Below the pieces are notes generated by a model, which saw only the letters and a program-made list of their open reading frames with translations, searched no databases and had not been told where the DNA came from. A stretch of 64,000 nucleotides of DNA from a virus, in IMG/VR virus record IMGVR_UViG_3300035698_010959. One strand, written 5' to 3'. Shown here one piece after another: positions 24,301 through 47,427 of the stretch; position 1 is the stretch's first letter; each line of letters starts with the position of its first letter. Position numbers and translations under genes: made by a program.

Positions 24301-26703
24301 ATCAAGTAACTTAGTGTTTGACATAACTTGATACTGCCGTATTGATCCATTTGCTTCAGTAACATCTATAATTAAACCTTGAATAGCCTTACCTTCTGCT
24401 GTTCGTGTTCCTAAATTAAATATATTACTCATCTCTGGATGTAGTCCAAAGAATCTTACAACATCAGCATTAGCAACAAATTCATCTAATGGCCTTTGTG
24501 TTATAATATGTTGAAATCCGCCAGGACCTTCTTTAAGCTTTATTCCAAGATTATCTAATACGGTTTCTATTTGTATGTCTATGGTTGGTATATCTGTAAT
24601 ACCTACAGCCTTTAAGTCTCTTTCTAATAAATCCATAGCTGCTGCATTTTTGGATAAAAGATCCAAGCCTTCATCAGCAGATCCTACTGTAGGTATTTGT
24701 ATTGATGGATCATTTAGACTAATAGCATTGTTGAACGCGTCGTTTGGATCTATTGGTTTTGGATTTCTTACTGCTCTATTTATTGCGTCATTTACAATCT
24801 CTATTGGCTTTGTTGATTCTGTTGTTCCTTCTTGTAGGATATCATAGAATCTTACAACTGCATCTCCAACTGTATCTTCATCTGCCCCAACTGCTCTTGT
24901 TATTTGTGCAAGTAAGGGTTTTCCTGGGTCACTTGCAGTAGGATAAACTTGTCTAAGAATATTAGTTATATCTTCTGGAGTTCTTACTACTTGTTGTGCC
25001 TTTGCTTGTATTGTGTCACTTGCTGCTTGTATGTTTCTAAACTCTTCTTGATATTGTGGTAACACTTTTAAAGCATCTACTAGATCTTCTCTTGATGTAA
25101 ACTTAGTAGGTATTGAGTAAGGACTTGGTTGTATTATATTGGCAGGTTTTGCTATTAGTTTTTCTTTGCTTGTATTAATCCCTTCTAGATCAAATACTAC
25201 TCCGCCATGTCTTACTCTTATTGGTTTTCCAATACCATGTCCTCTTGCTATTTCTTCTTGCATATTGGTAGCAGCAAACATTCCTTTGTCTCTTGTTGTT
25301 GAGTGCTTACCCATTCGTTCTCTTGCTTTTAGAGATCTATAAAACCCTGTTTCTTCTCGTAGACTTTTACTCCAAATATCTTCTCCAAGATCTTCTTGTA
25401 TTTCATCTGCTAAAGTTTTATATCTACCATCACGTGTTTTTCCACCAGATTGTAGCTCATCTCCCCAATCCTCTAAATTATAACCACCACTTTTACTTCC
25501 ACCTATACCAGGCTTATCTGCTCCTATTGCTTCTGCTTTTAAAGTTGCCAGATTTTCTGAAATAATATCATGGTGTTTTGTGTATGTCCCTATTTCACTT
25601 TGAATTTTTGAAACTCTGCTGCCAGTTATCGTTCCGTATTTCTTAGGTATGCCTAATCGCCTTCCATCTGTAAAGGCTTCTGCTAAACTTTTAACTGCTC
25701 GTGTAACATCATCAACATTACCTATTCGCGCTAACTGAGTTAGTCTTGTTACCGCTTTAGAGTCATATTCATTTACTCGTAGTAGTGCATACTTTAATTC
25801 AGGATCCAGTAAATCTACATTGTTATGTCTTATTAACTGTAGTGCTGTATACTTTGCTCTATTTGTTAGTATACTTCCTGCTTGTTTTACTGAAGATAAT
25901 TCATTTCTAAGAGTAGATAGTCGTTTAGATACTGAACTTTTTGCTATGTTAAGTCTATCTAATTGTGTATCTACGCTTCCAAGTTTTGGTTTACTTGTTG
26001 CTGGATGTACCCAATCATCTGCTGCTGGTATTATATTAGCTGTTGTTGGTCCAAAGAATTCTGTTTTAGGAATTGTAGCTGTTTGTGAAATAGCACCTTT
26101 TGTTAGTAGGTCTGGATGTTCTTCTATTATTACTGCAAGAGTTTTAACTAACTCATCACTGTAAGAATCAGAGGCGTCTTGTAATATAACTTTTCGTATT
26201 GCTGCTTCTGGAGATGGTGATTTTGATCCTTCTATTAGTGGATTACTATTAATTAGTCCTCTAAATACACCTAATTTATGAGGTGTCATAGTTTCTAATA
26301 GTGCAGTTATTCGAGACATTTCTGCTCTATCAATTAATCCTATTTTTGTTTCATATGCTTGATCAATATATAGTCTTAGTTTGTTCCAGCCTGGTTTTAC
26401 AGATGTATCATTCCATTTAACTATTTGCTCAAGATCGGCGCTTGCATCTACTATAATCTTCTCACCAGATGCAAGTATTTGTTGTCCGCTTTCTGCTACC
26501 CCTCTTGATAGTGGAGTAAGTGTTCCAGAGACATGGTTCTTTAATACTTGGTATGTTTTTTTAATACCACTTCGTGATAGAATTACTGTTATAACAAGTA
26601 ACCATTCGCCAAGCGTACGTAAGTCTGTGACCTTACCTTCTTCAAGTGTAAGGTTGTCTCTTACTTTATCTCCTACATATATTCTATCTCTGTTTTGATC
26701 CAT
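21343..26703 (-). CDS. Giant (1786 aa) putative virion protein with internal DEDDh 3'-5' exonuclease domain
   Basis: AFDIET, HNKGFD, VDTLMLS, YSLQNL and EHIGLFDARTT at about 23530-24045. Hydrophobic ALILGAMMAGSLMVLG near the C-terminus. Helical, tape-measure-like composition. Confidence 0.75.
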   Translation of the reverse strand: MDQNRDRIYVGDKVRDNLTLEEGKVTDLRTLGEWLLVITVILSRSGIKKTYQVLKNHVSGTLTPLSRGVAESGQQILASGEKIIVDASADLEQIVKWNDTSVKPGWNKLRLYIDQAYETKIGLIDRAEMSRITALLETMTPHKLGVFRGLINSNPLIEGSKSPSPEAAIRKVILQDASDSYSDELVKTLAVIIEEHPDLLTKGAISQTATIPKTEFFGPTTANIIPAADDWVHPATSKPKLGSVDTQLDRLNIAKSSVSKRLSTLRNELSSVKQAGSILTNRAKYTALQLIRHNNVDLLDPELKYALLRVNEYDSKAVTRLTQLARIGNVDDVTRAVKSLAEAFTDGRRLGIPKKYGTITGSRVSKIQSEIGTYTKHHDIISENLATLKAEAIGADKPGIGGSKSGGYNLEDWGDELQSGGKTRDGRYKTLADEIQEDLGEDIWSKSLREETGFYRSLKARERMGKHSTTRDKGMFAATNMQEEIARGHGIGKPIRVRHGGVVFDLEGINTSKEKLIAKPANIIQPSPYSIPTKFTSREDLVDALKVLPQYQEEFRNIQAASDTIQAKAQQVVRTPEDITNILRQVYPTASDPGKPLLAQITRAVGADEDTVGDAVVRFYDILQEGTTESTKPIEIVNDAINRAVRNPKPIDPNDAFNNAISLNDPSIQIPTVGSADEGLDLLSKNAAAMDLLERDLKAVGITDIPTIDIQIETVLDNLGIKLKEGPGGFQHIITQRPLDEFVANADVVRFFGLHPEMSNIFNLGTRTAEGKAIQGLIIDVTEANGSIRQYQVMSNTKLLDIETGIIKSLTDLSTEIPLTSLDNIVKTMDPGSPAAAQVIANALARSKKSKTLPIFALKQGGGIGSLESPAAFKQHLTNIEKALLGEADLFAFDIETDTSNKIYNIGAVRRRRTTVGGMLQTEDVLDIGTQESLLYGKKYTPRLMQNEAALIEELASKIVTQSDDTLFLLHNKGFDIGMLTQRAKDLGLGKNVIKSLQTMSDRSVDTLMLSKIMKSGMPGGYSLQNLSRKLGIRSAAWTEEHIGLFDARTTMDLFNKLSIDKPTVLDQAGNFNIFKTTKGGSPKKLSAGSNMQYLWGIRERRLFKLYGWDAEDLGGSVRVVMQELNEAGEPIANRIMAPIDSPVHALPDRLLGEFKPVNIEEGLQLRQGAVEDLARNRIRKMMYEVDLPYKELERLRVLEEASGLPNPMDYFGGMEDDIAGLTEDTLAVRDAMKFTDAALNDPRLADQIRLEKNWLENEWIPKHSNIHDQLVANETLAPWQKNLVLRKYYEDIESVAPWAQLTDVNIPAHDRRLAFTIKALGDNPQSIRIASDLMIQSDIRRIALQLVNKADSSRLNEILAEMVGIPGGLDVDDLKTFLTTRKVDILSNDAEERLIESMLDNEILEAYQSNRTKAAKAIDPENYSNLTGRKFVERLQRFSKGNLNASEQQSLETTASFNEYLQSRQIRQNALKNIQTKTQNEAQLILAKAMEAEDLMFARGDNQIDRLMWGKSIAHTENVFISEALQDPSLSPYRAQRAGKAKAYKFLGGLATSEEKFAKLTEPQQSTLMDMLGWTNIDEGSTLEDFTKARITQGKYAGEEMGHIGRSALEDLAQSRELSTPLRTILDKIIKPEAQELVTSQATTKFTRIGNKLEGISELLDAGRLTKGKYALILGAMMAGSLMVLGRRPDLQEISNKSEPIETVKNTTTASIQKPVYHKIDILIEGNTEGPTDTTNILTSLQEAINSHIVSPIEGFQSTHINDQRQTMNQGYINNLAETLLTMQN

Positions 26704-28278: not shown

Positions 28279-28585
28279 TGATGTCCTCCTCAACTGTTTC
28301 AATACGTTCAACATTTGTTATTAATTCTTGTTTAAATTGTGATAAACCATATTCATCTTTTCCAATTTCTTTTACTGCTATATATCCTTCTTTTTCAGGA
28401 ATAAACCCTAAGCCCGCAAAGCCTATGTTATCTTGTATTGATTGAGAGAATCCAGTAATAACAATATCTCCTTCATATGGATCTGTATCTATGTTTGTTA
28501 ATTTAAAAAGAGCATATAGTATAGAACCATGTCCGGTTGTTAGTTTATATTTAACGGTATCACCTATATTTTTTGGAGGTTTTAT
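28262..28585 (-). CDS. Hypothetical protein (107 aa) with probable ATA start
   Basis: Open frame fills the gap below the amidase and has no ATG/GTG/TTG. AGGAG-N8-ATA overlaps the amidase stop. Confidence 0.6.
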   Translation of the reverse strand: MKPPKNIGDTVKYKLTTGHGSILYALFKLTNIDTDPYEGDIVITGFSQSIQDNIGFAGLGFIPEKEGYIAVKEIGKDEYGLSQFKQELITNVERIETVEEDIIEYKT

Positions 28586-29157
28586 TGTAAATACTCCTGT
28601 ATATATTTGTGTACTCCATTACATATTGCTTTAGCAATCAGGTTTCTTTTTTTAGTAGTAGTTAAAACTTCTCTATCATTTATGTTTGAGATAAAACCTA
28701 CTTCTGTTAGTATACATGATTTACATCTGTTGGCTAAAGCATTACGTAACATATAAAATCCCCAAATAGGATATCTAGACTTGTCTCCTTTGACTCCTCT
28801 TTTGGTAAAGAAATCTAAAGCATCTACTGATCTACAAACATATTGTGATAATACTTTACTAGCTTCAACTCCAGACCTATACCAGATTTCTGAACCATTG
28901 GCTGATTTGTTTACTGATCCATTAGAGTGTAATGATATTAGTATATCTCCATGTTTTGCAATGGAGCTTCTATAGGAATTAGATAGTGTTTTATCTGTAT
29001 CTCGTGTGAATACTGTTGTATATCCTAATTCTCTAAAAAAATGTCCTAACATTTTAGCACAAGCTAAAACTATATCTTTTTCTTTTGATCCTCCAGCACA
29101 TGCTCCTGGATTGCTATTTCCTCCGTGACCAGGATCAATTACAATTCTTGGTTTCAT
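28582..29157 (-). CDS. N-acetylmuramoyl-L-alanine amidase (Amidase_3), candidate endolysin
   Basis: IVIDPGHGG, KEKD, ISLHSN and LTEVGFISN Zn/catalytic motifs; no cell-wall-binding domain. Confidence 0.92.
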   Translation of the reverse strand: MKPRIVIDPGHGGNSNPGACAGGSKEKDIVLACAKMLGHFFRELGYTTVFTRDTDKTLSNSYRSSIAKHGDILISLHSNGSVNKSANGSEIWYRSGVEASKVLSQYVCRSVDALDFFTKRGVKGDKSRYPIWGFYMLRNALANRCKSCILTEVGFISNINDREVLTTTKKRNLIAKAICNGVHKYIQEYLQ

Positions 29158-29178
29158 TTGTTGTAGTTACTCCAGTAA

Positions 29179-29733
29179 TTAATCTTTCTTTTCTGTAATT
29201 GGCATAAACCCAGTTTCTTTTTGTTTTGGTAAGCATTTTCCAGTCCATAATTCATGCGCTATTCCATATGATATTATCTTTTCTGAAGATAAAAAGCTTT
29301 CTTCTTTTAGCAAAGAGTTCCATTTTTTTCTTTCTAAGTTAGTACGACTTACATAAAAATCTACAATAGAGGATGTTACTCTTTTATGGTCTATTTTTTC
29401 TTTATCTACTTCTATTAGGTTTAATGTATCTCCTCCATAATACCAACTTATACCGTGTAATAACATGTATGCATGTTTTGATATATATCTCTTATTTGCG
29501 GCCATATATATAGTAGTAGCAGCACTTGATACCTGTCCAAGACCAATAGAGGTTGTATTATCATAACATGAAATTACATCTGTAAGAGCTAAAGCGGGAT
29601 ATAGCTGTCCTCCTTCACTATTTATAAATATAGTAACTGGAGCATTTTTTGGATGGCGTATAAGTGTATCTATTATAGGAGATATTTTTTCTAAAGTTAT
29701 TTCTCCAAATATTGTAAGTACTAAGTTGTCCAC
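29179..29733 (-). CDS. clpP: ClpP-family protease
   Basis: INSEGG, GLGQVSSAA (catalytic Ser), KRYISKHAYMLLH (His), FLSSEKIISYGIA. Confidence 0.85.
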   Translation of the reverse strand: MDNLVLTIFGEITLEKISPIIDTLIRHPKNAPVTIFINSEGGQLYPALALTDVISCYDNTTSIGLGQVSSAATTIYMAANKRYISKHAYMLLHGISWYYGGDTLNLIEVDKEKIDHKRVTSSIVDFYVSRTNLERKKWNSLLKEESFLSSEKIISYGIAHELWTGKCLPKQKETGFMPITEKKD

Positions 29734-32209: not shown

Positions 32210-35200
32210 TTATCCATATAAATTTAAAGTTTCTGCGATTTCTTTCATTCTATTTTGTCTTACATTCATTGCTATATTTATGTTGTCTGATGAGGCATTG
32301 GCATCTGGAACTGAGTTTACCCTAATTCGTAGATTTTTTATACCATTTCCTGATAGTAAATTGTTTAAAGTTTTTTGAATATGTGAAGATGAACCATGTA
32401 CTGTTGGTAGTTGTACTTCATTTGTATTATGTTCTGCTTCAACTACAACCTGTGGATAGAAACCATAGTCAAGAGGGTCTGTATGTTCTTGTACTGTAGT
32501 TCTTGCTTTAAGTTGTTCTAAGTCTACTTCTGGTGACCATCCTTTCCAGGATTCACCTGGAAGTGTGTGTACTTTAAAGTAATCACCGAGTAGTTTTCTT
32601 TTTGGTATATCTTCTTCTTCAATACCAAGGTGTATTCCAAGTAGCCTTTGTTCGTAATCTGGGAGAAGTCTATAGGCTTTTTTTCTTTCTTCTGGTGTTG
32701 ATCCTGTTATCAATCCATTTATTATTTCTCGTTCATACTTTGGGAGTGCTCTAAATATATTCATGTATGGTCCGCCAGGATCGGCTCCATACATTGTTGA
32801 TCTATATTTTTGTTGATATAATACTGCTTGTGTTGCTAGTGGTCCAAGTGCTACTGTCTCGGATCTACTTTGTAGTTCTTGTATTTCTGCTCTGATAGCC
32901 AACTCTTCTTTTGATCCACGTTCATTAGCTAATAGGTGTTTTCTTCTTTTATCCTCTAGCTCTCTAATCTTTTCTTTTCTCCACTGTCCAAGATTACGAG
33001 CCCGATCATCTATTTCTTCTACGTCTGTTCCTTCTTCATCATTAGCTAGTTTAGCAGTTGCTTCATATAGTCTTCTATATTTTATATACTCTAAGGTATC
33101 ATAATATTCTTCTACATCTCTTCTCTTTTGTGTTCTATTTGGTATCCAAGGCTCTCCTGTTAGTGCTTCTTGTCCTTGTCGAAGTATTGAAAGTCCAGCT
33201 CCTATTGCTGCTCCAGCAAGCGCTGCTTTGCCTCTCATCTTTTTTGTTCTCATAAATAGAGAGGAAAATACTCCCGCTCCTACTGCTGCGCCTATTGCTC
33301 CTTTAGCTACATATGACTGTATTGTTGGTTCAATGTAAGAACTATAAGCAGACTCCCAGCGTCCATATTTTTTTCCATAAACTTGACTTCTTACATATTC
33401 TTCATAAGGAGATCTGATTTTAAGAAATTTTGAATTGAGCATTGTATCAGCATGAGATATTGTCTCATAGCGTGCTCCAGCAGTTATTTCTTTTTCAGTA
33501 AATCGAGCATATATACCAGCAGCAGACCATTCTTCTTTTTCTATTCCAACTCCAGTTTGTATTAGATCAGCATTAATGTTTCTATTGTGTGCCATGACAA
33601 CAGCATGCTGTGTTCCAAGTACATCGTCAGCATATCTATCTTCTGGATCTTTATTTACTAAAGCTGTTACTTTTGTACCTTTGCGAATACCGTACTGACG
33701 ATATAATACTTCAGCTGGAGATAGGTTTTCATTTTCTCCATACTCATCTGTAATTCTTTGATTAGAAGCCCTTACTCCAGCAAGACGCAGTGGATGTTCA
33801 GATTCTCTAACCTGTAGTGTATTGGCATCCATTATGTTACTGACTGTATATGTCTGTTCTTCTACATTTGCGTTTTTAAATCTATATGGAAATAAATCAA
33901 GCCGTTTCTTTTGTGCTCCAGCTCTTTTCTTAGCAGCCTGAAATCTATCTCTTTGATCTTCTGTTAGTTGGTCATCATGTGGTAGATATCCCTTTAGTTG
34001 TTTATATTCCTGTGAATATGGCGAATTATGTGTTGCATACCCTAATACACAAAAAGAATTATCGTCCTCTATTGTCCAGTTATATACCTCTCCAGAGTAG
34101 GGCTGCTTTTCTGTTTTTATTACTTTACTTACTAAATAGTTACCATCTATCCATGCTTGTCGCCTTCTATTTTCAGGCCGTACATAGCTTGGAGCTTTTC
34201 CAGTTACCCATGTAACAAAGTCATATGCTACAGTACCAAACATCCTAACTCTATAAATTTGTCGTCTATCTTGTTTAGGAAAGTATGACTTTCTTGTGGT
34301 AAATTGGACACTTGCTACAAATCCGTTTTGTAGAAGCATATCTCTAATGCCTAAAGCAAGTTTAAGGCTAATAGTAGTCATTTCGGCTTGTAGTTGATGC
34401 CCAGTTTTACAATCATTGTGTTTGGATGCACATAAACAACCATCACCTGCAAAGTAACTAGATAGTAATTGACGTTGGAGTTCCGAATCTAGATTAAAAG
34501 CCCATTGTGGTAATTGTTTTGTTGCGGAACGTTGTCCAAATATATTACAAAATAATTTTCCTATTGTTTGATTAGTTACACATACATACCTTGAATTACT
34601 TTCTGGTTTTGTAAATATTTTTGGAGTAGTTTCACAAATATCTGCAAAGTAATCTTTTAGAAAATTTGCTGTTTCTATCTCATTTATGTTAAGGCTAAAT
34701 ATTAAACCTTTTGGTTGATGAGTTTTAGTTGATCTACCATTAGATGAGCCTTCTGCAAGATATACGCCAGCTGCTTTAGCAAATCTAGCATCTACTAGAA
34801 GTTGGGATATACAAAATGTATTACATCCTTGTCGTTTGGGATGTAGCCAAGTATCTTCACGTAGTGTATAACTATCTGGTAATATATCTTTAATATTTAA
34901 GAAATTAGGTGGTGTTTCTTTTTTAGGAATTGGATACAATACTACATCATTGGACCTAATATCTCCTAATGCAACCCAGTCTGCTGTATCTATAGGATAG
35001 CAATATCTATTAAATTCGTTTTCATCAGATATAATATTATCATTGTTGGCGTTATATTGTGGTATATTTTTAGCATTGCTTGGGGCTTTAATTGTGTAAA
35101 TCGGATGTTCTGGAGTTGCTAATAATGGGTGTGCTGGTATGAATGCAACATTTAGTTTTATGAGATGTGGACTATAGTGGCGTATAGCACAACGAGTGAC

Positions 35201-38200
35201 AGCTTTAGAATCTCCTTTATGGGAAATAACTCTATCACCAACTTTAACATCTTTTGCTAGTTTTACTGAGCCATCTGATGTGCGTATATACGTAAGTGGA
35301 TGTACACACGTATCTGCCAGGATCTCAAATCTTGTTGTCATATCATATAGATCTGCTCTTGATACCTCGCCGGAGTCAATCATTTCTCTAACTTTTGATC
35401 GTGCTTCTTCTACTTTCTGGAATAGATTAGATACTCTTCTTTTTGAATATCCTACATGTTCTATTCTTGTTTGTTCTGGATTGTCTCTATTCATATAGAA
35501 TAGCAATCCTCTGTGTATTCCAGATTCATTCATGTAGAAGTTTAACTGATCTAAGTGACTTGCGAATATTTCTCCAGAATTAAATCTTTTATCTGACATA
35601 GATTTAATTTCTGTTACATATTTTTTACCATCTAAGTTTAATAACGCATCCATATGTCCAGAGATACCTAACTCTGGATTATAAAGTTCTACTTCTTCAT
35701 CTTCTAATATACCAAGTTTTTTCCATTTGTTTTGGTATTTTTTGTGTATTTGAGTTCCTTCATCCATTATGTTTTCCATATAAGCAGAGTTGGCTTCTTT
35801 TATGTTTACCATTTCTGCTACTAACTCATTTACACTTTTACCAAGAGAGGATGCTCGTGTTCTCATTAAAGGCATATTATGTATGCGTTCATATGCACTT
35901 CCAGGTAGTCTTACTTCCCCCGCCGCTCGTAATTTTGTATACATGTCTCCTGTTTGGAAATTCGTGAAATAATTAGACCCAGGTAGCCATGTTTCTTCAA
36001 AAGCGTTTGGTACTGTATTGTATTCCTCTACCTGTCTAAATCTGTGAGGCATAAATCTTCTACCTATCTCGGAGTTATGTACAATCATACCAATTGTACA
36101 GAAACTTGGATCTCCATCCATAGTAAAGTCATATACTAATCCTTCATAAGCTGTTGGATAGTTTTCTTTTACTTTGAAATAGATAAAATTAGCGTCTCTC
36201 CAGGAAAGCCCTTCATTGTTTGAGTTATCTGGTTGATAATTACCAAAATGTAATAAGCCTAATTGATCTCTTAAATTTCTTGCGTCATTTCCATTTAAAG
36301 TTACACAAAATTGTGGCTTTGTTTTATATCTTTTTTTTGTAATGTCATTAATAAAGAATCTTCGTTTTCTATTTTTTATAGATAAACTTGGAGTATATCC
36401 TAACATTATTAAGATATTAAATATTTGTAACGCCAGTTTATATGCTACAATAGATATTCGTAGATCTGTTTTATTTGTTCTATCAGACCTACAATGCCCA
36501 TCTCCACGAAATAGTCCTTCTAATATTCCTAATAAAAATTCTTTTGGTGTATTTAATAGTTCTGAAGGAATACGTTTATCATTCTTTGCTCCAAAGGCAG
36601 CAAATATGAATTCGGCAAGAACTCTATTACATACCCTTGTATACCAGTATCCTTCTTTTGTTGTTGCTGCTGTAGTATTTAATCCTAAAGAGTTTGCAAA
36701 ATCTTTACAGAATGTGGCATAAGATTCTTCATCTCTATCATAGGCAAAATGAATTTCATAAAGTCTTCCTTTATCTCTATTACCAAAACTTCCCTCTGCT
36801 AACCATAGTCCTAAAAACTTTCCTAAGTCTTTTGTTAATAGTAGTTCTTTTGGAAAGGATACTGCTGCGTTTTTACAATTATCAAAGGCAAATCTGTTAT
36901 CAAAATCTGTTATAGAAGATAGTCCTATAGTAGTTACTATATTTAATTTAGTTAGTATATTACTTTGTTTGGGTATTGGATATGCTATATAATCTCCTTT
37001 CTTTATGTATTTTGCTGCTATCCATTCTGGAGTATAGTGTTGATGATAGTTAAATTCACAGGATTGGAATTTATTACAGTGTGGAATACAAGATGAATTC
37101 TTTTTTCTTCCATCTTTATGTTCACAATATTCTGTACTTATTGCGAATACTGGATGTTCACTTGTGGCACTAAGAGGAAATCCACCACAGTATGTTTCTA
37201 TACAGCGTATGTCTTCATTAATATGTCGGCTATGTACTGCTAATACTTCTTGTGGTATTCCATATCTGGATAGTAGTGTGGTTCCAGTTGTAATATCTTT
37301 TACTTCTATTGGTGTACCAAAGTCTTGTTGTAGTAACATATTTGGAGTAAGACAAAGAAAACCTCCTAATCCTCCAAGCTCCGCTTCCCAGTATTTACGT
37401 TCATAACTGTATGCTCTTGAAGCATCAGCCATTACTGTTCCAGTTCTATCTCCAAGAGGAATACCTGCCATCCATCCATAGAGTCCCATCATTTCTCGCG
37501 TTAGATAACTACCTAATTCTGCGTTACCTATGTAATCAACATCTTCTAGTTGTTCTGCTGTAAATGCTTTTTCTTGTCCATAGATATCTTGTAGGCGTGC
37601 TGGTATATTAGATGAACCTTGTGATTTAAGTTCTCTATTTATTTTTTCAAGTTGTTTACGTATTACACGCCTTGCTCCACCTATTGTTCTTTTACTCCAT
37701 GGATCTGACATACCTGGTGGAAGTTCAGATAGTGCTACTTGTCCTGCTGAGGTTAGAGTAGCAAGAGAACCTTCAGTCAATATCATTGGACTAGCAGAGT
37801 AGTCTGCTAGGGTTTCACTTCCTTTTCCACCTCTAATTGGTTGGTTCCATTTTCCTCCACCTGCTTTTGCTTCATGCTTAGTAGCTTCATTTAGTGCTCT
37901 TAATTGTTTTTTAGATTGTGTTTCTTCTAAGTTTTCTGGCAGATAATCTGGGTGTAATACTCTTCTCGGTTTTATTATCTTTCCTATTGTTGCGTTTAGT
38001 ATTGGACCCCATAGTGTTTCACGAGTAAAAGGCTCACCCGAAAAAATGTATGGCCGATCTGGATTTGGGCCTACAGAATGTTTGTGCTCAAAAGCGTACG
38101 GATCTAATAGCCTATTGATAGTACTGAGTGGGTATCGAGGTGTAGGGATAGCAGATCGACTCCAATAATCTTTATTGTTATAATCTACATTCTCAGCGCC

Positions 38201-41020
38201 TTGCCATTCGGAGTTTGCCAGTTGGTAAGGATCTGGCATAAAGTAAGATACTCTATCTCCATAAAATGCCGATCTTGAGCCAAATAACCAGAACCTTCCT
38301 TTTCGTATAGGAACATAGCCACTATCTAATTGCTTTGCCATGTCTGCTTTGTTTAATCCAGACATGTAGTATTTAGATCCTGGATGTAGTTCTGCGAATT
38401 TTTCCCAATCGTTAAGACCAGCCCACTGTAGTTTAAGGTTGGCTCTTATGTTTGCTATGCCCTCTTCTGGCCGTGCTCCTATTAAGTTTTCACTTTCATA
38501 GTTTATATATTTCCATGCTTCAACTGCTGCTACACCAGGTAGTATTCGTTGAACAACTAATCCACGTATTATGTCTGCTCCACTTCCAAGGTTCTCTGGA
38601 TTTAATCCTAATCCAAATGGAGTTAGTGCTTCATTTAATCGTGTAGCAAAGAAGTAAGGTTTTAGACTGGTTCGTGTTATACTTCCAGAATCTGCACCTT
38701 GTACAAATGTACTTGCGTATTGTTTTGTAAAATCTGATCCAGCAAATTGCTTTATCATGTCCTGGAATGATCCACCAGATTTGGTAATATCATTAAGTGT
38801 TTTAATTAGTCCAGCATGTTGTTTTACTAATAGGCGTTGTGGGCCTTCATATACTTGAGGAGGAGTATGTATATCAAGAAGACCTAAGAAGTTATTCATT
38901 ACATATTCTGAGGTTTCTTTTATTGAGGATGACTCTACTTTTTTAGTTAATAGATCTCTGGCTGCCTCTGCTCCTTGTACTTCTAATACGCTTCTTATTT
39001 GAGAACCATAGACTGCTGCTTTTGCTAATTCTAATTCTTGTTCTTCTAAGCCAAATCTTGCTTGTGTAAGTTTTGTTATAAGAGGCGTAGTTATACCTAA
39101 CTCTGTTGGATTTGCATATCGTATGGCATATTCATCTATGAGAGCTTCTCTCATCAGGTCTATGCCGTGTTTAGATTCTGGAGCACCAAGAAGCCTATCC
39201 ATAAGCGGTGATTTGCTTGTTACTCTTTGTGTTCTATCAAGAACTTCATTTGGACTTACACTAAAGTCCTCTAATAATATTGATAGTTTTTTAGAAGAAG
39301 CCTTTAGGCCATATGACCTATTCTGTTGGAAGAATTTTACTATATCAGCATCATTCTCTATGTTCTGTAAAACACTCGCAACCTCTGGAGCATTAGGAAA
39401 CATTCCTGTTTGAAGTGTTTTTCTTACATTCTGTGGAGATATTTTTCCTACTTTTTGTAAGAGAGTAGCTACTGTTCTTATGTCTTTTTCCATTGTAGCA
39501 GCAGGCGCTGTTGGATTCTTATATATTCGTTCTAGTGCTCCTGCTGGATAGCTTTTAGCTATTCTTGCTAGTTCTGAGTTTTCTGGAAACTTAGAAGGAT
39601 CCGCAAACTTAGTAAAGATAGATCTTGCTTGTCTAAATACAGAGTCTGTTGGTTGTCTTCCTGTAGAAAAGAAATTTTGTAACTTCTCTATAATTGTATT
39701 TCCACCTGTACCAAATCCAGCTAGATCTAATAATTTTCCTGATCCACTTCGAGTAATTCTATCTTTTTTTGCTGCTTTACTGGCTAATAGGTTACGCATT
39801 AAATGCTCACCAAGGCCATAGTCAGCATGTAGTGCGGTTATATTGTCTACAGCATCTGATATTACATTATCTATAGCTAGTGAGTCACCAAAGCGCATTC
39901 CAACAGCAGTATTACCTACTAAAGATATGTCTTGGTTTCCTGAGAATAGTCCTTTTATTAGTGCTTGTTTACCAAGAGTGTTACTTTTTATAAGAGTATG
40001 TCCAAGTTTAACTTCACCTGTTAACCAAGGAAATAATCTAAATGGGCTGAATCCTCCAACAAAAGGTATAAGTGGTATTTCTACGTTTTCATTTAACCAA
40101 CTTATACCTTTTCCTATTAACTTAGATGCTCCTCTAAGATCTGTTACTTGTTTTCCATTAACTGTCCATAGTTCTCCAAGAACTGCTTTGTTTATTACAT
40201 CTGTATCAGCTTGTTTTCCTAGAGTGTGTGCTAAGGTTTTACTTGTTTTTTCTGCTTGCTCTATAACTTCGGCTGTAAAATTAGCTCTATTAGTTAAAAC
40301 ATTACCTACTGTAACGCGCTTAGCACCAAATACTTTTTCTGCTATTGCGTCTGTCCAACTACTATGTTGCCCTAAAGCAATGTTTGTATATTTTTCTGAA
40401 GATGCTGTTCTTTTTGTTAGAGCACGTGCTAGTAGTCTTTGATGTTCTTCTTTTGCTCTTGCTACTTGAGCTTGTAATGAAGATGCTCTTGGATCAGTTG
40501 GAAGTCCAAATGAGTTGTCAAATAGATGATCATTTGAAAGTCTTTTTCTAGCCGCTAGAAGATCTGCGGATATTTCATCTACACCTTTTCCTGTGCCTTC
40601 AAATGATGATCTAAGCCCAGAATAGGTATCATCCATCAGGTTTTTTGGAAGAGGATCACCAGGAGATATCCATGTTTTTATTCTACTATATGGAGCAACT
40701 CCACCCTCATATCCAAATAGATTATCTACTTGTGGGTTAACCCAACCAGCATCTCCAAGATATCCTCGTAATCGTTGTTCTCCTACTTGCATTCGTGCTC
40801 TACTTGGTATTGTTTCATTTATAGCACGACCTACATCATCTGCAAAACGTGTTAGAGCAAACCTTGCTTCTGTTCTTTCTGCTGTTGCTAGACGAGCAGC
40901 TATAGTCTCTGCACCACGTAGTGCAAAGGCTGCTATTTTCTTTCTACCAAGTATTGCAGCAGTAGCTGCACCTACTCCAAGTATTTTCCATCTTGTATTT
41001 TGGTTTTCGTATGTATTCAT
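32210..41020 (-). CDS. Tape-measure-like giant protein with two inteins, a PD-(D/E)XK nuclease domain and an SNase-like domain
   Basis: Follows the tube and chaperone genes; helical with Gly/Ala hydrophobic segments. Nuclease motifs GTQIH, SGHMD, TEIKS, QLNFY. SNase-like VSNIMDANTL...LRLAGV. Spliced length 2081 aa. Confidence 0.8.
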   Translation of the reverse strand: MNTYENQNTRWKILGVGAATAAILGRKKIAAFALRGAETIAARLATAERTEARFALTRFADDVGRAINETIPSRARMQVGEQRLRGYLGDAGWVNPQVDNLFGYEGGVAPYSRIKTWISPGDPLPKNLMDDTYSGLRSSFEGTGKGVDEISADLLAARKRLSNDHLFDNSFGLPTDPRASSLQAQVARAKEEHQRLLARALTKRTASSEKYTNIALGQHSSWTDAIAEKVFGAKRVTVGNVLTNRANFTAEVIEQAEKTSKTLAHTLGKQADTDVINKAVLGELWTVNGKQVTDLRGASKLIGKGISWLNENVEIPLIPFVGGFSPFRLFPWLTGEVKLGHTLIKSNTLGKQALIKGLFSGNQDISLVGNTAVGMRFGDSLAIDNVISDAVDNITALHADYGLGEHLMRNLLASKAAKKDRITRSGSGKLLDLAGFGTGGNTIIEKLQNFFSTGRQPTDSVFRQARSIFTKFADPSKFPENSELARIAKSYPAGALERIYKNPTAPAATMEKDIRTVATLLQKVGKISPQNVRKTLQTGMFPNAPEVASVLQNIENDADIVKFFQQNRSYGLKASSKKLSILLEDFSVSPNEVLDRTQRVTSKSPLMDRLLGAPESKHGIDLMREALIDEYAIRYANPTELGITTPLITKLTQARFGLEEQELELAKAAVYGSQIRSVLEVQGAEAARDLLTKKVESSSIKETSEYVMNNFLGLLDIHTPPQVYEGPQRLLVKQHAGLIKTLNDITKSGGSFQDMIKQFAGSDFTKQYASTFVQGADSGSITRTSLKPYFFATRLNEALTPFGLGLNPENLGSGADIIRGLVVQRILPGVAAVEAWKYINYESENLIGARPEEGIANIRANLKLQWAGLNDWEKFAELHPGSKYYMSGLNKADMAKQLDSGYVPIRKGRFWLFGSRSAFYGDRVSYFMPDPYQLANSEWQGAENVDYNNKDYWSRSAIPTPRYPLSTINRLLDPYAFEHKHSVGPNPDRPYIFSGEPFTRETLWGPILNATIGKIIKPRRVLHPDYLPENLEETQSKKQLRALNEATKHEAKAGGGKWNQPIRGGKGSETLADYSASPMILTEGSLATLTSAGQVALSELPPGMSDPWSKRTIGGARRVIRKQLEKINRELKSQGSSNIPARLQDIYGQEKAFTAEQLEDVDYIGNAELGSYLTREMMGLYGWMAGIPLGDRTGTVMADASRAYSYERKYWEAELGGLGGFLCLTPNMLLQQDFGTPIEVKDITTGTTLLSRYGIPQEVLAVHSRHINEDIRCIETYCGGFPLSATSEHPVFAISTEYCEHKDGRKKNSSCIPHCNKFQSCEFNYHQHYTPEWIAAKYIKKGDYIAYPIPKQSNILTKLNIVTTIGLSSITDFDNRFAFDNCKNAAVSFPKELLLTKDLGKFLGLWLAEGSFGNRDKGRLYEIHFAYDRDEESYATFCKDFANSLGLNTTAATTKEGYWYTRVCNRVLAEFIFAAFGAKNDKRIPSELLNTPKEFLLGILEGLFRGDGHCRSDRTNKTDLRISIVAYKLALQIFNILIMLGYTPSLSIKNRKRRFFINDITKKRYKTKPQFCVTLNGNDARNLRDQLGLLHFGNYQPDNSNNEGLSWRDANFIYFKVKENYPTAYEGLVYDFTMDGDPSFCTIGMIVHNSEIGRRFMPHRFRQVEEYNTVPNAFEETWLPGSNYFTNFQTGDMYTKLRAAGEVRLPGSAYERIHNMPLMRTRASSLGKSVNELVAEMVNIKEANSAYMENIMDEGTQIHKKYQNKWKKLGILEDEEVELYNPELGISGHMDALLNLDGKKYVTEIKSMSDKRFNSGEIFASHLDQLNFYMNESGIHRGLLFYMNRDNPEQTRIEHVGYSKRRVSNLFQKVEEARSKVREMIDSGEVSRADLYDMTTRFEILADTCVHPLTYIRTSDGSVKLAKDVKVGDRVISHKGDSKAVTRCAIRHYSPHLIKLNVAFIPAHPLLATPEHPIYTIKAPSNAKNIPQYNANNDNIISDENEFNRYCYPIDTADWVALGDIRSNDVVLYPIPKKETPPNFLNIKDILPDSYTLREDTWLHPKRQGCNTFCISQLLVDARFAKAAGVYLAEGSSNGRSTKTHQPKGLIFSLNINEIETANFLKDYFADICETTPKIFTKPESNSRYVCVTNQTIGKLFCNIFGQRSATKQLPQWAFNLDSELQRQLLSSYFAGDGCLCASKHNDCKTGHQLQAEMTTISLKLALGIRDMLLQNGFVASVQFTTRKSYFPKQDRRQIYRVRMFGTVAYDFVTWVTGKAPSYVRPENRRRQAWIDGNYLVSKVIKTEKQPYSGEVYNWTIEDDNSFCVLGYATHNSPYSQEYKQLKGYLPHDDQLTEDQRDRFQAAKKRAGAQKKRLDLFPYRFKNANVEEQTYTVSNIMDANTLQVRESEHPLRLAGVRASNQRITDEYGENENLSPAEVLYRQYGIRKGTKVTALVNKDPEDRYADDVLGTQHAVVMAHNRNINADLIQTGVGIEKEEWSAAGIYARFTEKEITAGARYETISHADTMLNSKFLKIRSPYEEYVRSQVYGKKYGRWESAYSSYIEPTIQSYVAKGAIGAAVGAGVFSSLFMRTKKMRGKAALAGAAIGAGLSILRQGQEALTGEPWIPNRTQKRRDVEEYYDTLEYIKYRRLYEATAKLANDEEGTDVEEIDDRARNLGQWRKEKIRELEDKRRKHLLANERGSKEELAIRAEIQELQSRSETVALGPLATQAVLYQQKYRSTMYGADPGGPYMNIFRALPKYEREIINGLITGSTPEERKKAYRLLPDYEQRLLGIHLGIEEEDIPKRKLLGDYFKVHTLPGESWKGWSPEVDLEQLKARTTVQEHTDPLDYGFYPQVVVEAEHNTNEVQLPTVHGSSSHIQKTLNNLLSGNGIKNLRIRVNSVPDANASSDNINIAMNVRQNRMKEIAETLNLYG
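34025..35308 (-). mobile_element. Intein 2 (428 aa) with LAGLIDADG endonuclease in the tape-measure-like gene
   Basis: ILADT/CVHPLTYI; LLATPEHP; AGVYLAEG; LSSYFAGDG; VYNWTIEDDNSF....ATHN/SPYS. Confidence 0.93.
36074..37354 (-). mobile_element. Intein 1 (427 aa) with LAGLIDADG endonuclease in the tape-measure-like gene
   Basis: GGLGGFL/CLTPNMLL; LSATSEHP; LGLWLAEG; LEGLFRGDG; VYDFTM....SF....IVHN/SEIGRR. Confidence 0.93.
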
Positions 41021-43243: not shown

Positions 43244-43921
43244 CTAGAATGTTGGTCCAACTATATGTATTCCGGTTTGATTTATGTGCAGTAGCGTGTC
43301 ATCAAACACAGTAGAAGTATCATATTGTGTTTTTGAAAATGCGTTATCATCCTCTGTATAGTTGCTTTCTCTACTAACATATTCAGAACCATCATTGCTA
43401 TTTTTGCTTGTTATATATGCTGGTTGTAATGGAGTTCGTGATATAGCCATGTATGAATAACTTTCCATTAGGGCTATGTTGTCTAAACTATAGGTTATAC
43501 CTTCATCTAGTATTGTTATGCCTTCTATTGTTGAGTAACTTGCGTTTCCAATTTCATTTACAAATGTTATAATTACGTCAAATCCTGGAAACTCATCTGC
43601 TAATACAACATCTGGAGTCTTCCACATTTTTCTTGCATTATCTGTTATTTTGGTAAAGGCTTCTCTGTCAATTGTATTAAATGCAAGTGTACCACCAATC
43701 AAACGGTGACCAGCGGTAAATCCTTTTGGCCCTATTCGTGAACAAGATGTGACAGGAAATTTATCTCTGTGTGAACTTACTGACAACATTGCTAATGTTC
43801 CAAGAAGCATTGGTTTTAATATGCCATATGCTGGTTGTGGTTGTATTGTTGCAATAATATCACAAGCAGAAAAAGCACGAGTTGTATCGTATATAGGATT
43901 AGTAGTTGGTTGTTGTGACAT
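43244..43921 (-). CDS. Tail tube paralog
   Basis: RAFSACDI...GTL...GHRLIGGTLAFNTIDR...DEFPGFDV...NEIG...IEGITILDEG, clearly similar to 44079..44813. Confidence 0.7.
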   Translation of the reverse strand: MSQQPTTNPIYDTTRAFSACDIIATIQPQPAYGILKPMLLGTLAMLSVSSHRDKFPVTSCSRIGPKGFTAGHRLIGGTLAFNTIDREAFTKITDNARKMWKTPDVVLADEFPGFDVIITFVNEIGNASYSTIEGITILDEGITYSLDNIALMESYSYMAISRTPLQPAYITSKNSNDGSEYVSRESNYTEDDNAFSKTQYDTSTVFDDTLLHINQTGIHIVGPTF

Positions 43922-44078: not shown

Positions 44079-44813
44079 TTAAGTTGTACCGTACTTAGAG
44101 TTAAACTGTACAGGAGACTCAATAGCAGTTAGAGGTATAACCGTTCGTGCTATAAAGGTATATGCAATTTCTGAACTTAAATCATCCATAGTATATCCAC
44201 TTCCTTCATTTAGAAGAGTAATACCATTGATGGTTGCCCATGCTGCATCTCCATTTTCGTTTACCATTGTAAGACAGATATCAAACTCAGGTATTTCATC
44301 AGAGTATCTTACTACTCTATTTCTTACCATATTATAGACTTCTGCAACTTCTCTTTGCACATTAGTAAGAGTTACATCATTACCATTTGCTCCAGGAAGA
44401 AGGTCTACTGTTGGGTTTCCATTTATTGCAAAGCGGTTATTTATATCGCTTATAGCATTTACTGAAGAGAATTGTGAATACTCAGTTTCACTTATGAGTC
44501 TTTCCATTTGCTCAATCTCTCCAAACCTTGTACCATACAGTGTTTTTCCTGTATCATCTGCAAAATGATCTCTTAACAGAGCATGTCTATCGAAGTTAGT
44601 AAATACTAACGTTCCAGCTATTCCGCGTTTTCCACGTACAACAGCACGTAAGTCACAGTTTCCCATTGTATATATAGGTAAAGCTTCTCTTGTAATGCTG
44701 ACAGTAACAGCCTGTAGTGTTCCACACTGCTTACCATTTATGTATGCAGTCATGTCACATCCAGAGAATGCTCTCATATTGAGTTTATTGTTTGCTAATA
44801 TTCGGTCTGCCAT
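44079..44813 (-). CDS. Major tail tube protein
   Basis: Directly after the sheath, strong AAGGAG RBS, followed by a terminator. RAFSGCDM...GKRGIAGTLVF...NEG.GYTMDD. Confidence 0.8.
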   Translation of the reverse strand: MADRILANNKLNMRAFSGCDMTAYINGKQCGTLQAVTVSITREALPIYTMGNCDLRAVVRGKRGIAGTLVFTNFDRHALLRDHFADDTGKTLYGTRFGEIEQMERLISETEYSQFSSVNAISDINNRFAINGNPTVDLLPGANGNDVTLTNVQREVAEVYNMVRNRVVRYSDEIPEFDICLTMVNENGDAAWATINGITLLNEGSGYTMDDLSSEIAYTFIARTVIPLTAIESPVQFNSKYGTT

Positions 44814-46575: not shown

Positions 46576-47427
46576 TTAAAGAGTCCTTAGAGTATCTATT
46601 TCTAAATATTCATCGACTTTCTCGTAGTATATATAGTAAGTAGCACCTGTTTCTGGAGACTTCCCCCCAGTAATCCAAACAACAGATAACTGCCCAGAAA
46701 CGTCGTCTTTGGTTATATAGTAGTCTATACTAAGTATATAGTCTGGTATTGTTCCAGAAGTTATTTGATTATCTCCTACTTGGTATATCTCTACTATACG
46801 TAAATCTTGCACTATGTTGTCTACTGTTTCCTGTAATGGGATGTTATCAATAGTTAGTGCACTTCTTGTTATTGCAAGAGTTTCTAATTTTGCATCCATA
46901 TCTATTATCAACTTTATATTTCGTATATTTTCCAGATATACTGGATATATCGCTGTAAACACTGTTAGATATCTAAGAGATCTAATAGCAGTTCTAGATG
47001 GTACAGGTGGTAATGTGTAGTCTTTTACCTGTTCATTAAAAATGAATGTCTCAACTCCAGCTCTTACTAGAGCAGGAGTAGACTCCATTAGAAATTGCTC
47101 AAATCGCATCATCAAGTTATTTACTTCATGGTCTGAAGAATGATATAAATCAAATTGATATATTACCGTTGTCCATTGTCCAAAGTATAGAACACTTTTA
47201 TTATTACTTGATGTTTCTTTTTTTCGTATTCTTTGTTTTCTTGTTTCTTTTCCGTCTTTACCAGGTATACGTCTATGAATACTCCATACTATTGTTGGAA
47301 TAGTAACAGCTTCATCTGGATATTTTTCTGTAAAGAGTGTATCACTTATTACAGAGTGTTGCATACTAGCATGTAAGAGTTCTGGTATGTTAGTTGGATT
47401 GAGGTAACGCGGCATTTGTTGACACAC
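46576..47427 (-). CDS. Tail terminator/completion-like protein
   Basis: YPDE...PTIVW...YQFDLY...MMRFEQFL; directly upstream of the sheath. The true start may be the second Met (MPRY). Confidence 0.55.
   Translation of the reverse strand: MCQQMPRYLNPTNIPELLHASMQHSVISDTLFTEKYPDEAVTIPTIVWSIHRRIPGKDGKETRKQRIRKKETSSNNKSVLYFGQWTTVIYQFDLYHSSDHEVNNLMMRFEQFLMESTPALVRAGVETFIFNEQVKDYTLPPVPSRTAIRSLRYLTVFTAIYPVYLENIRNIKLIIDMDAKLETLAITRSALTIDNIPLQETVDNIVQDLRIVEIYQVGDNQITSGTIPDYILSIDYYITKDDVSGQLSVVWITGGKSPETGATYYIYYEKVDEYLEIDTLRTL

What the first reader, a model, noticed from the sequence alone, without database searches (positions are those of the whole stretch)
34025..37354. Two full homing-endonuclease inteins inside a tape-measure-like protein, bracketing its nuclease domain
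Seen: inteins of 427 and 428 aa (C1...HN/S, both LAGLIDADG motifs present) separated by only 255 aa of extein, which holds the PD-(D/E)XK domain. Established: inteins concentrate in conserved motifs of replication and nucleotide enzymes and in terminases; tape measures are usually too variable for homing. Inference: the sites GGLGGFL/SEIGRR and ILADT/SPYS mark a conserved functional core, so this protein is more than a ruler. Splicing could gate assembly or nuclease activation. More speculatively, cross-splicing between the two similar inteins would skip the nuclease segment and give two isoforms.
Basis: partly seen in the sequence, partly recalled or inferred. Interest (0 to 1): 0.8.

Follow-up and report, generated by a model that had tools for sequence, protein, structure and literature searches.

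The report
Two inteins in phage virion nuclease protein
A giant virion protein of an uncultured jumbo phage is interrupted by two genuine self-splicing inteins that flank its built-in DNA-nuclease domain; the inteins are ordinary selfish elements, but the protein family is a previously unlisted hotspot for them and is probably not the tail ruler itself.

Summary
ORF 32210-41020 (-) encodes 2936 aa with inteins at aa 1223-1649 (427 aa) and 1905-2332 (428 aa), 255 aa apart. Both have Cys1, block B TxxH, terminal HN, +1 Ser and two LAGLIDADG motifs.

Intein-free homologs of about 1900-2100 aa align straight across both sites. Both junctions rank in the top 1% of conserved 12-aa windows in the family. 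The 255-aa extein is a RecB/Cas4/lambda-Exo-type PD-(D/E)XK nuclease with conserved catalytic motifs, and a staphylococcal-nuclease-like fold follows it.

The "tape measure" label is doubtful. The host is the ortholog of Bacillus phage 0305phi8-36 gp145, a virion protein encoded between the tail chaperonins and the assigned tape measure gp146. A separate 1786-aa ORF downstream fills the gp146 position.

The two inteins share only 25% identity and no DNA similarity, so they are independent elements. Cross-splicing and splicing-gated activation have no support.

New here: 31 of 163 family representatives carry inteins at 9 or more distinct sites. The window's second site is occupied only in this phage, and most alleles have a splicing-incompatible Ala at its +1 position.

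Verdict: real, new members of a known kind, moderate interest.

The parts
32210..41020 (-). Precursor ORF of 2936 aa. The predicted mature protein after both splicing events is 2081 aa. Ortholog of Bacillus phage 0305phi8-36 gp145, a virion structural protein.
   Evidence: ORF and translation; tblastn/blastp to gp145, with N-extein E 4e-40, middle extein 2e-22 and C-extein 3e-97; the identical protein is found on 7 contigs, of which the three shown come from three different samples.
37355..41020 (-). N-extein, aa 1-1222. The N-terminal 740 aa are variable. A conserved, mostly helical domain spans about aa 760-1040. This domain holds the positions equivalent to intein sites A, B and B2 of relatives (about nt 38270, 38125 and 38083), all empty in the window.
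   Evidence: Conservation profile. Census of insertion sites. The AF2 model of this domain has no clear PDB fold match.
36074..37354 (-). Intein 1: 427 aa, class-1 splicing residues plus a LAGLIDADG homing endonuclease domain. It is inserted at family site C (GGLGGFL|SEIGRR).
   Evidence: Cys1, block B SATSEHPV (nt 37148-37171), LAGLIDADG motifs at nt 36785-36826 and 36491-36538, and block F/G ending HN (nt 36074-36136), all. Pfam LAGLIDADG_3 33 bits and Intein_splicing 26.8 bits. An allelic intein with 57% identity sits at the same site in P0002.
35309..36073 (-). Middle extein, 255 aa: a RecB/Cas4/lambda-Exo-type PD-(D/E)XK nuclease domain. Motifs are GTQIH (nt 35744-35758), GHMD (35645-35659), EIK (35600-35614) and QLNFY (35534-35551). 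It has no Cys and therefore no Cas4 Fe-S cluster.
   Evidence: phrog_1706 3.9e-23. TIGR00372 cas4 1.6e-10, below cutoff. Motifs are conserved in 24 of 25 homologs. Foldseek matches 4ic1, 3syy, 5zyv and 3slp at E 1e-6 to 4e-5.
34025..35308 (-). Intein 2: 428 aa, class-1 splicing residues plus a LAGLIDADG domain. It is inserted at family site E (RFEILADT|SPYS), a site occupied only in this phage among 163 family representatives.
   Evidence: Cys1, block B LLATPEHPIY (nt 35096-35125), LAGLIDADG motifs at nt 34742-34780 and 34433-34468, and block F/G ending HN (nt 34025-34087). PI-PkoII match at E 4.2e-10. Census. The +1 residue is Ala in 149 of 159 aligned family members.
32213..34024 (-). C-extein, 604 aa. 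It contains a helical linker, a staphylococcal-nuclease-like beta-barrel (about nt 33539-33865), the empty equivalent of intein site F (about nt 33445), a Gly/Ala-rich hydrophobic pair of segments (nt 33182-33301), and a charged helical tail.
   Evidence: AF2 model and Foldseek hits to staphylococcal nuclease at E about 7e-5. Coordinate mapping. 34% identity to the gp145 C-terminus over 644 aa.

Best explanation
The gene encodes a giant virion protein of an uncultured 0305phi8-36-like jumbo myophage. Its conserved core contains a RecB/Cas4/lambda-Exo-type nuclease domain followed by a staphylococcal-nuclease-like domain.

Two unrelated-by-descent-within-the-gene, full-length class-1 inteins have invaded two of the most conserved motifs of this core, one on each side of the first nuclease domain. 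Each intein carries a LAGLIDADG homing endonuclease.

Inferred mechanism: after translation, each intein excises itself independently. The steps are an N-S acyl shift at Cys1, transesterification to the +1 Ser, and Asn cyclisation. This joins GGLGGFL-SEIGRR and ILADT-SPYS and yields a 2081-aa mature protein collinear with the intein-free homologs.

The inteins persist as selfish homing elements. Their endonucleases target the intein-less allele during co-infection, and the conserved motifs make good, hard-to-mutate targets.

Shown here: the anatomy, the precise insertion, the conservation of the sites, and the patchy distribution of the inteins.

Inferred, not shown: splicing and homing activity, delivery of the nuclease with the virion, and any biological role of that nuclease.
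For: - Exact boundaries and all canonical splicing residues.
- Hint and LAGLIDADG profile hits and PI-PkoII similarity.
- 20 or more intein-free homologs align gap-free across both junctions.
- The junctions sit at the 99.2 and 99.7 percentile of family conservation.
- Intein 1 has an allelic partner in P0002 (57% identity, with the endonuclease domain as conserved as the exteins). The equally related P0003 lacks it, with the same synteny (L002).
- 31 of 163 family representatives carry inteins at 9 or more sites in different combinations.
- The identical two-intein protein occurs on 7 contigs; the three shown are from three different samples. It is therefore a circulating, intact allele.
- Nuclease motifs are conserved, and the fold matches Cas4, LHK-Exo, lambda Exo and SNase.
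- gp145 is a virion protein by mass spectrometry according to the record annotation.
Against: - No experimental evidence of splicing or homing for these alleles.
- Taken alone, each intein scores below Pfam's gathering cutoff for Intein_splicing (26.8 and 19.6 bits against 35.8). Intein 2 scores 20.2 against 22.5 for LAGLIDADG_3.
- No near-identical intein-less allele of this same phage was found: the spliced-junction 30-mers are absent from viral contigs. Recent mobility is therefore not shown.
- Virion location is transferred from a 27-34% identical ortholog.
Confidence: 0.88

Rival explanations
1. Conditional splicing acts as a regulatory gate. The two inteins keep the nuclease domain disconnected or misfolded until a cue such as assembly, redox state or entry into the next host triggers splicing. 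The phage is thereby protected from its own virion nuclease.
For: The inteins bracket the nuclease domain exactly. Both interrupt invariant motifs, so the precursor is likely to be inactive. Conditional protein splicing is documented for some inteins (general knowledge, not tested here).
Against: Most family members (132 of 163 representatives) have no intein at all. The others hold them at different sites, including sites far from the nuclease (A, B, B2, F). Gating therefore cannot be a property of the family. Neither intein shows a redox-trap feature, such as a Cys at -1 or +1 of the junctions. Site choice is explained by conservation alone.
Confidence: 0.06
2. Cross-splicing between the N-terminal junction of intein 1 and the C-terminal junction of intein 2 skips the 255-aa nuclease segment. 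This would give a second isoform joined GFL-SPYS.
For: Both inteins are class 1 with Cys1, HN and +1 Ser, so the chemistry is formally compatible. They are detectably homologous (E 3e-31).
Against: The inteins are only 25% identical over 453 aligned columns with 11% gaps, and share no DNA similarity. A Hint fold must assemble from matching N and C halves, and inteins this divergent are generally orthogonal (general knowledge from split-intein engineering). The skipped product would lack a domain conserved in 24 of 25 homologs. No homolog lacking this segment appeared among the hits.
Confidence: 0.02
3. One or both inteins are decaying. Splicing is retained but the homing endonuclease is dead, so they are now vertically inherited passengers and no longer mobile.
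For: Intein 2 scores below the LAGLIDADG_3 cutoff. No closely related intein-less allele, and no second occupant of site E, was found. 149 of 159 alleles have Ala at +1 of site E, which would block productive invasion.
Against: Both LAGLIDADG motifs in both inteins keep their acidic catalytic residue: LAEGS, and GDGHC or GDGCL. Both inteins are full length (427 and 428 aa), not minimised. The endonuclease domain of intein 1 is as conserved as its splicing domain against its allele in P0002 (58% against 62-69%).
Confidence: 0.25

Closest known systems
Canonical class-1 LAGLIDADG inteins such as PI-PkoII (Thermococcus kodakarensis PolB, PDB 2cw7) and PI-SceI
   Same: Hint splicing domain with Cys1, TxxH, HN and a +1 nucleophile. 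A nested two-motif LAGLIDADG endonuclease. Size about 430 aa. Insertion in a conserved motif of a nucleic-acid enzyme. Direct sequence similarity to PI-PkoII (E 8.6e-4 and 4.2e-10).
   Different: The host protein is a phage virion protein, not a polymerase or ATPase. Sequence identity to any deposited phage intein is 26% or less. Intein 1 carries a Cys-rich insert after block B.
Actinobacteriophage inteins in Cas4 exonuclease and in tape measure protein (preprint 10.1101/2025.01.02.630785)
   Same: Phage inteins residing in a RecB/Cas4-type nuclease and in a tail-lumen structural protein. LAGLIDADG endonucleases. Patchy distribution. Ala at +1 noted as a barrier to invasion.
   Different: The reported Cas4 inteins are class 3, sit inside motif III (EFKT) of stand-alone Cas4 genes, and come from Actinobacteria phages. 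Here the inteins are class-1-like and flank the nuclease domain rather than interrupting it. The host is a 2000-aa multidomain virion protein of 0305phi8-36-like jumbo phages.
Bacillus phage 0305phi8-36 gp145 (ABS83703.1), virion structural protein
   Same: Orthologous host protein: 27-34% identity over the conserved core and the whole C-terminus. Same gene order: sheath paralog, sheath, tube, tube paralog, gp142 homolog, chaperonin homolog, then this gene.
   Different: gp145 is 1930 aa, has no inteins, and has a roughly 60-aa insertion between nuclease motifs II and III.
Multi-intein host proteins, such as archaeal PolB with 2-3 inteins and ribonucleotide reductases with many insertion sites (general knowledge)
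   Same: Several independent inteins in one polypeptide, each at its own conserved motif. Many alternative sites across the family.
   Different: Those hosts are replication or nucleotide-metabolism enzymes. Here a virion protein family has 9 or more sites within about 750 aa.

Membership tests
Intein (Hint domain, class 1) | N-terminal nucleophile (Cys/Ser1) and block B TxxH | tested here: met
   C1223 with TSEH (SATSEHPV), and C1905 with TPEH (LLATPEHPIY), read. Coordinates.
Intein (Hint domain, class 1) | C-terminal His-Asn followed by a Ser/Thr/Cys +1 extein residue | tested here: met
   IVHN|S1650 and ATHN|S2333.
Intein (Hint domain, class 1) | Precise in-frame insertion relative to intein-free homologs | tested here: met
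   MAFFT alignment of 25 homologs: 23 have zero residues in the intein 1 columns and 24 have zero in the intein 2 columns. The flanks align without gaps.
Intein (Hint domain, class 1) | Match to curated Hint/intein profile above threshold | tested here: inconclusive
   The whole protein passes PF14890 (39.9 bits against 35.8). Each intein alone is below the cutoff (26.8 and 19.6 bits). A family-specific intein HMM gives E 1e-142 or better, but it was built from these sequences.
Intein (Hint domain, class 1) | Protein splicing activity | not testable with these tools
   Needs expression followed by MS or SDS-PAGE.
LAGLIDADG homing endonuclease (two-motif, intein-borne) | Two LAGLIDADG motifs, each with a catalytic acidic residue | tested here: met
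   Intein 1 has LGLWLAEGSF and ILEGLFRGDGHC. Intein 2 has GVYLAEGSS and SYFAGDGCL. PF14528 scores 33 bits for intein 1 (passes) and 20.2 bits for intein 2 (just under 22.5). PI-PkoII endonuclease region matched.
LAGLIDADG homing endonuclease (two-motif, intein-borne) | Site-specific cleavage of the intein-less allele (homing) | not testable with these tools
   Only indirect evidence: patchy distribution among close relatives. P0001 and P0002 have the site C intein, while P0003 does not.
Tail tape measure protein | Gene lies directly after the tail assembly chaperone genes and before the baseplate hub | tested here: inconclusive
   It does follow the gp143/144-like gene (w207). However, a second giant ORF (21343-26703, 1786 aa) lies between it and the hub (10077-17180), as gp146 does in 0305phi8-36.
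Tail tape measure protein | Extended, mostly helical or coiled-coil polypeptide without large globular enzymatic domains in its middle | tested here: not met
   The core folds confidently (pLDDT about 90) as a PD-(D/E)XK domain plus an SNase-like barrel.
Tail tape measure protein | Profile match to a known TMP family, or orthology to an assigned TMP | tested here: not met
   No TMP family found in Pfam or PHROGs. The ortholog gp145 is annotated only as a virion structural protein, and the TMP role is assigned to gp146.
Cas4 (CRISPR-associated RecB-like nuclease) | RecB motifs I-III and QxxxY | tested here: met
   GTxxH, GhxD, (D/E)IK and QLNFY are conserved in 24 of 25 homologs. Fold match to 4ic1 at E 1.2e-6.
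Cas4 (CRISPR-associated RecB-like nuclease) | Four-Cys Fe-S cluster and a score above the TIGR00372 cutoff | tested here: not met
   No cysteine in the 255-aa extein. 41.1 bits against a cutoff of 65. It is a RecB/lambda-Exo-type PD-(D/E)XK domain, not a Cas4 proper.
0305phi8-36 gp145-like virion protein family | Sequence homology over the core and C-terminus, plus conserved synteny | tested here: met
   E 3.6e-40 (N-extein), 2e-22 (middle extein) and 3e-97 (C-extein). Neighbours match gp142 and gp143/144. The family has at least 500 representative clusters at E 1e-30 or better.

The most novel reading that the evidence does not exclude
The gp145-like family is a virion-delivered, tail-lumen dual-nuclease effector. 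In this phage its activity depends on two separate protein-splicing events, and these act as a safety catch: the nuclease becomes whole only after or during assembly, or in the next host. If so, these inteins have been domesticated as a maturation switch and are not purely selfish.
Probability: 0.06. Interest if true: 0.8.

Novelty: new member of a known kind. Interest (0 to 1): 0.42.

Why it matters
Inteins are used as markers of functionally constrained sites. Here they point to a conserved enzymatic core of about 750 aa in a widespread but uncharacterised giant virion protein of 0305phi8-36-like jumbo phages. The core holds a PD-(D/E)XK nuclease and an SNase-like fold, and the family has at least 500 clusters at 50% identity.

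The family adds a structural, virion-associated host with 9 or more insertion sites to the intein catalogue. It also offers natural cases for studying site choice. One is the +1 Ala barrier at site E. Another is a site-D-type intein sitting at the look-alike RGDLY motif in a relative.

In practical terms, the two orthogonal LAGLIDADG inteins and their endonucleases are new reagents. The nuclease core is a candidate for a virion-delivered enzyme acting on host or phage DNA at the start of infection. None of this changes how inteins are understood to work.

Tried and rejected
- Tape measure identity: considered and down-weighted on orthology, synteny and globular folds.
- Cross-splicing and recombination between the inteins: rejected as unsupported. 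They share 25% aa identity and have no nucleotide match better than 17 nt.
- Intein-less allele of the same phage: exact 30-mers spanning each spliced junction found nothing in viral contigs. The nearest intein-free allele is only 56% identical (P0003).
- Whole-genome intein count: no genome is held for this window. Within the window there are exactly three inteins.
- Fold of the N-terminal conserved domain (family sites A, B, B2): the AF2 model has pLDDT 70. Foldseek found no match at E 0.001 or better, and VIA-align wide gave a best Z of 3.6 on a short helical stretch. No assignment was made.
- A 76-sequence alignment failed in the tool; 31 sequences were used instead.
- The middle extein alone had no significant sequence hit to PDB. 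Cas4 4ic1 reached only E 0.18, so a fold comparison was needed.
- Literature checks found no report of inteins in gp145-like proteins: phiCbK, the MarsHill-like phages, MIJ3, and the 0305phi8-36 comparative paper. The 0305phi8-36 paper mentions only a terminase intein in BtI1.


Full report
**Observation**

The minus strand of the window carries one open frame from 41020 to 32210, encoding 2936 aa. Two segments have the full anatomy of class-1 inteins.
- Intein 1 is aa 1223-1649 (nt 36074-37354, 427 aa).
- Intein 2 is aa 1905-2332 (nt 34025-35308, 428 aa).
- They are separated by 255 aa.

Each begins with Cys, has a block B TxxH (TSEH, TPEH), and has two LAGLIDADG motifs that keep their acidic residue. 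Each ends in His-Asn and is followed by Ser.

Pfam finds Intein_splicing and LAGLIDADG_3 in the protein and in each segment. Both segments match the solved intein PI-PkoII.

**Are they insertions?**

A search with the middle extein returned 23 homologs, most of 1900-2100 aa. The spliced window protein would be 2081 aa.

In a MAFFT alignment that also includes 0305phi8-36 gp145, the intein-free proteins run without a gap across both junctions.
- Site 1 reads lGGlGGxl|SEIGRRF.
- Site 2 reads RFeILADv|(A/S)PYSxEy.

These junctions rank at the 99.2 and 99.7 percentile of all 12-aa windows for conservation.

The nearest intein-free relative is P0003, at 56% identity. It lies on a 216,913-bp contig with the same gene order (L002).

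The identical two-intein protein is on 7 contigs; the three shown come from three different samples. It is therefore a circulating allele and not an assembly artefact.

**What is the host protein?**

The surroundings are a myophage structural module:
- portal (61211-62947)
- major capsid protein (56027-57205)
- sheath paralog and sheath (47390-48865, 44826-46547)
- tube and tube paralog (44079-44813, 43244-43921)
- baseplate hub with SLT domain (10077-17180)
- baseplate wedge (5026-6135)

Among deposited phages the exteins match only 0305phi8-36-like Bacillus jumbo phages and a Moorella phage. The best match is 0305phi8-36 ORF145, "virion structural protein, identified by mass spectrometry".

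Local BLASTP gave the following matches:
- the C-extein matches gp145 at E 3e-97;
- the upstream 281-aa gene matches gp142;
- the 207-aa gene matches the tail chaperonins gp143/144.

In that phage the tape measure role was assigned to the next gene, orf146. The chaperonins were described as "one gene removed" from it (PMC2147016).

In the window a 1786-aa ORF with no family match (21343-26703) sits in the gp146 position, ahead of the hub. The host is therefore the gp145-type protein of the tape-measure region. It is not demonstrably the ruler.

**The conserved core**

The middle extein hits PHROG families annotated as Cas4-like or exonuclease and TIGR00372 cas4 below its cutoff. RecB motifs GTxxH, GhxD, (D/E)IK and QLNFY are conserved in 24 of 25 homologs. 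The segment has no cysteine, so there is no Cas4 Fe-S cluster.

An AlphaFold2 model was made of the intein-free core (P0003 aa 1100-1660, 31-sequence alignment). It has mean pLDDT 80, about 90 over the domains. Foldseek matches two folds:
- Cas4 SSO0001, LHK-Exo, MGME1 and lambda exonuclease (E 1e-6 to 1e-4);
- staphylococcal nuclease as a second domain (E about 7e-5).

Site 2 falls at the C-cap of a confidently modelled helix. This helix lies in the linker between the two nuclease folds. Site 1 falls in a highly conserved but low-confidence segment just before the PD-(D/E)XK domain.

The N-terminal conserved domain (aa ~760-1040) has no recognisable fold.

The C-extein also has a Gly/Ala-rich hydrophobic pair of segments (nt 33182-33301) and a charged helical tail. 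These features recall tail-lumen or ejection proteins, but that is inference.

**The family is an intein hotspot**

A full HMMER scan with the 930-aa core found 1507 representative proteins at E 1e-3 or better and 500 at E 1e-30 or better. Using an HMM built from ten family inteins, 31 of 163 retrieved members carry inteins. Boundaries are clean (C...HN|S/T) and fall at nine or more distinct sites:

| Site | Junction | Occupants |
|---|---|---|
| A | GRWWxlGN\|TPFxGG | several relatives |
| B | PTPRxPL\|SxlRHF | several relatives |
| B2 | DPYxWER\|(S/T)H | several relatives |
| C | GGlGGxl\|SEIGRR | the window, P0002, P0084 and fragments |
| C2 | NPIRNxMA\|TWLPGS | P0074, P0093 |
| D | RGDPY\|TKI | 12 members, the commonest |
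| E' | SRGDLY\|TSLDRF | P0087 |
| E | ILADT\|SPYS | the window only |
| F | LDTPlH\|TKFL | several relatives |
| further | one more site | the P0036 fragment |

Combinations differ between proteins: A+F, A+B2, B+C, C+D, E'+F, and C+E in the window.

At site E the +1 residue is Ala in 149 of 159 members and Ser in 7. Ala cannot serve as the splicing nucleophile. This plausibly explains why the site is almost never occupied. At site C the +1 residue is Ser in 91 of 153.

**Relationship of the two inteins**

- They align end to end at 25% identity (E 3e-31) and have no significant nucleotide similarity.
- Intein 1 is 57% identical to the site C intein of P0002, the same divergence as the exteins. 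Its endonuclease domain is conserved as well as its splicing domain.
- All family inteins are 20-28% identical to each other across sites. They are more distant from the third intein of the window, in PolA (nt 18827-20080).
- No deposited phage has an intein more than 26% identical to either.

**Mechanism and rival readings**

The best-supported reading is two independent selfish inteins. Each splices on its own to restore a conserved motif, and each is maintained by homing.

Splicing as a regulatory gate is possible in principle. It is not suggested by the family pattern, because most members have no intein and others carry them elsewhere.

Cross-splicing that skips the nuclease is unlikely. 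The inteins are too divergent to form a hybrid Hint fold, and the skipped domain is conserved throughout the family.

Loss of endonuclease activity in one or both inteins cannot be excluded.

**Comparison with what is known**

LAGLIDADG inteins, multi-intein proteins, and phage inteins in Cas4 exonucleases and in a tape measure protein are all on record (preprint 10.1101/2025.01.02.630785).

Three things appear to be new:
- the host family (gp145-like virion proteins);
- the number of insertion sites in it;
- site E.

The finding is therefore a set of new members of a known kind, with moderate interest. It is useful mainly as a pointer to an uncharacterised, probably virion-delivered nuclease core.

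Earlier notes of this scan on the same window had already listed the nuclease, the SNase-like fold and the PolA intein. These were re-tested here.

Noticed in passing
window 17969-21280 (-); intein nt 18827-20080: A family-A DNA polymerase gene sits inside the tail module. It carries a third LAGLIDADG intein (aa 401-818, KVGI|C...SHN|CDLSQY). This intein is only marginally similar to the two gp145-type inteins.
   Followed up: partly
window 21343-26703 (-): A 1786-aa ORF with no Pfam or PHROG family occupies the position of 0305phi8-36 gp146, the assigned tape measure. Pfam at E 0.01 or better did not report one.
   Followed up: partly
P0087 (homolog), aa 1508-2031: An intein of the site D type (CISPDTLVEV...VAGVATHN|T) sits at SRGDLY|TSLDRF instead of the usual RGDPY|TK site, about 200 aa further downstream. 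This looks like an intragenic jump to a look-alike motif.
   Followed up: no
window 37058-37126 (-), intein 1 aa 77-99: A Cys-rich insert (CEHKDGRKKNSSCIPHCNKFQSC) lies between block B and the endonuclease domain of intein 1. It is conserved in the allelic intein of P0002 and could be a small zinc-binding module.
   Followed up: no
window 28582-29733 (-): An endolysin-like gene (28582-29157) and a ClpP/head-maturation-protease-like gene (29179-29733) lie between the gp145-like gene and the tape measure candidate. A ClpP-family gene is at the same place in the intein-free relative L002.
   Followed up: no
P0130 (homolog), aa 1495-1630: A mini-intein of about 136 aa without an endonuclease domain sits at a site B-like position (DRPYPL|C...IVHN|SGELF), next to a full-length intein at site A. 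This would be a degraded stage of the intein life cycle within the same family.
   Followed up: no
window 7493-8653 (-): A glycosyltransferase-like gene (phrog_7162, 6e-50) is embedded among the baseplate genes.
   Followed up: no
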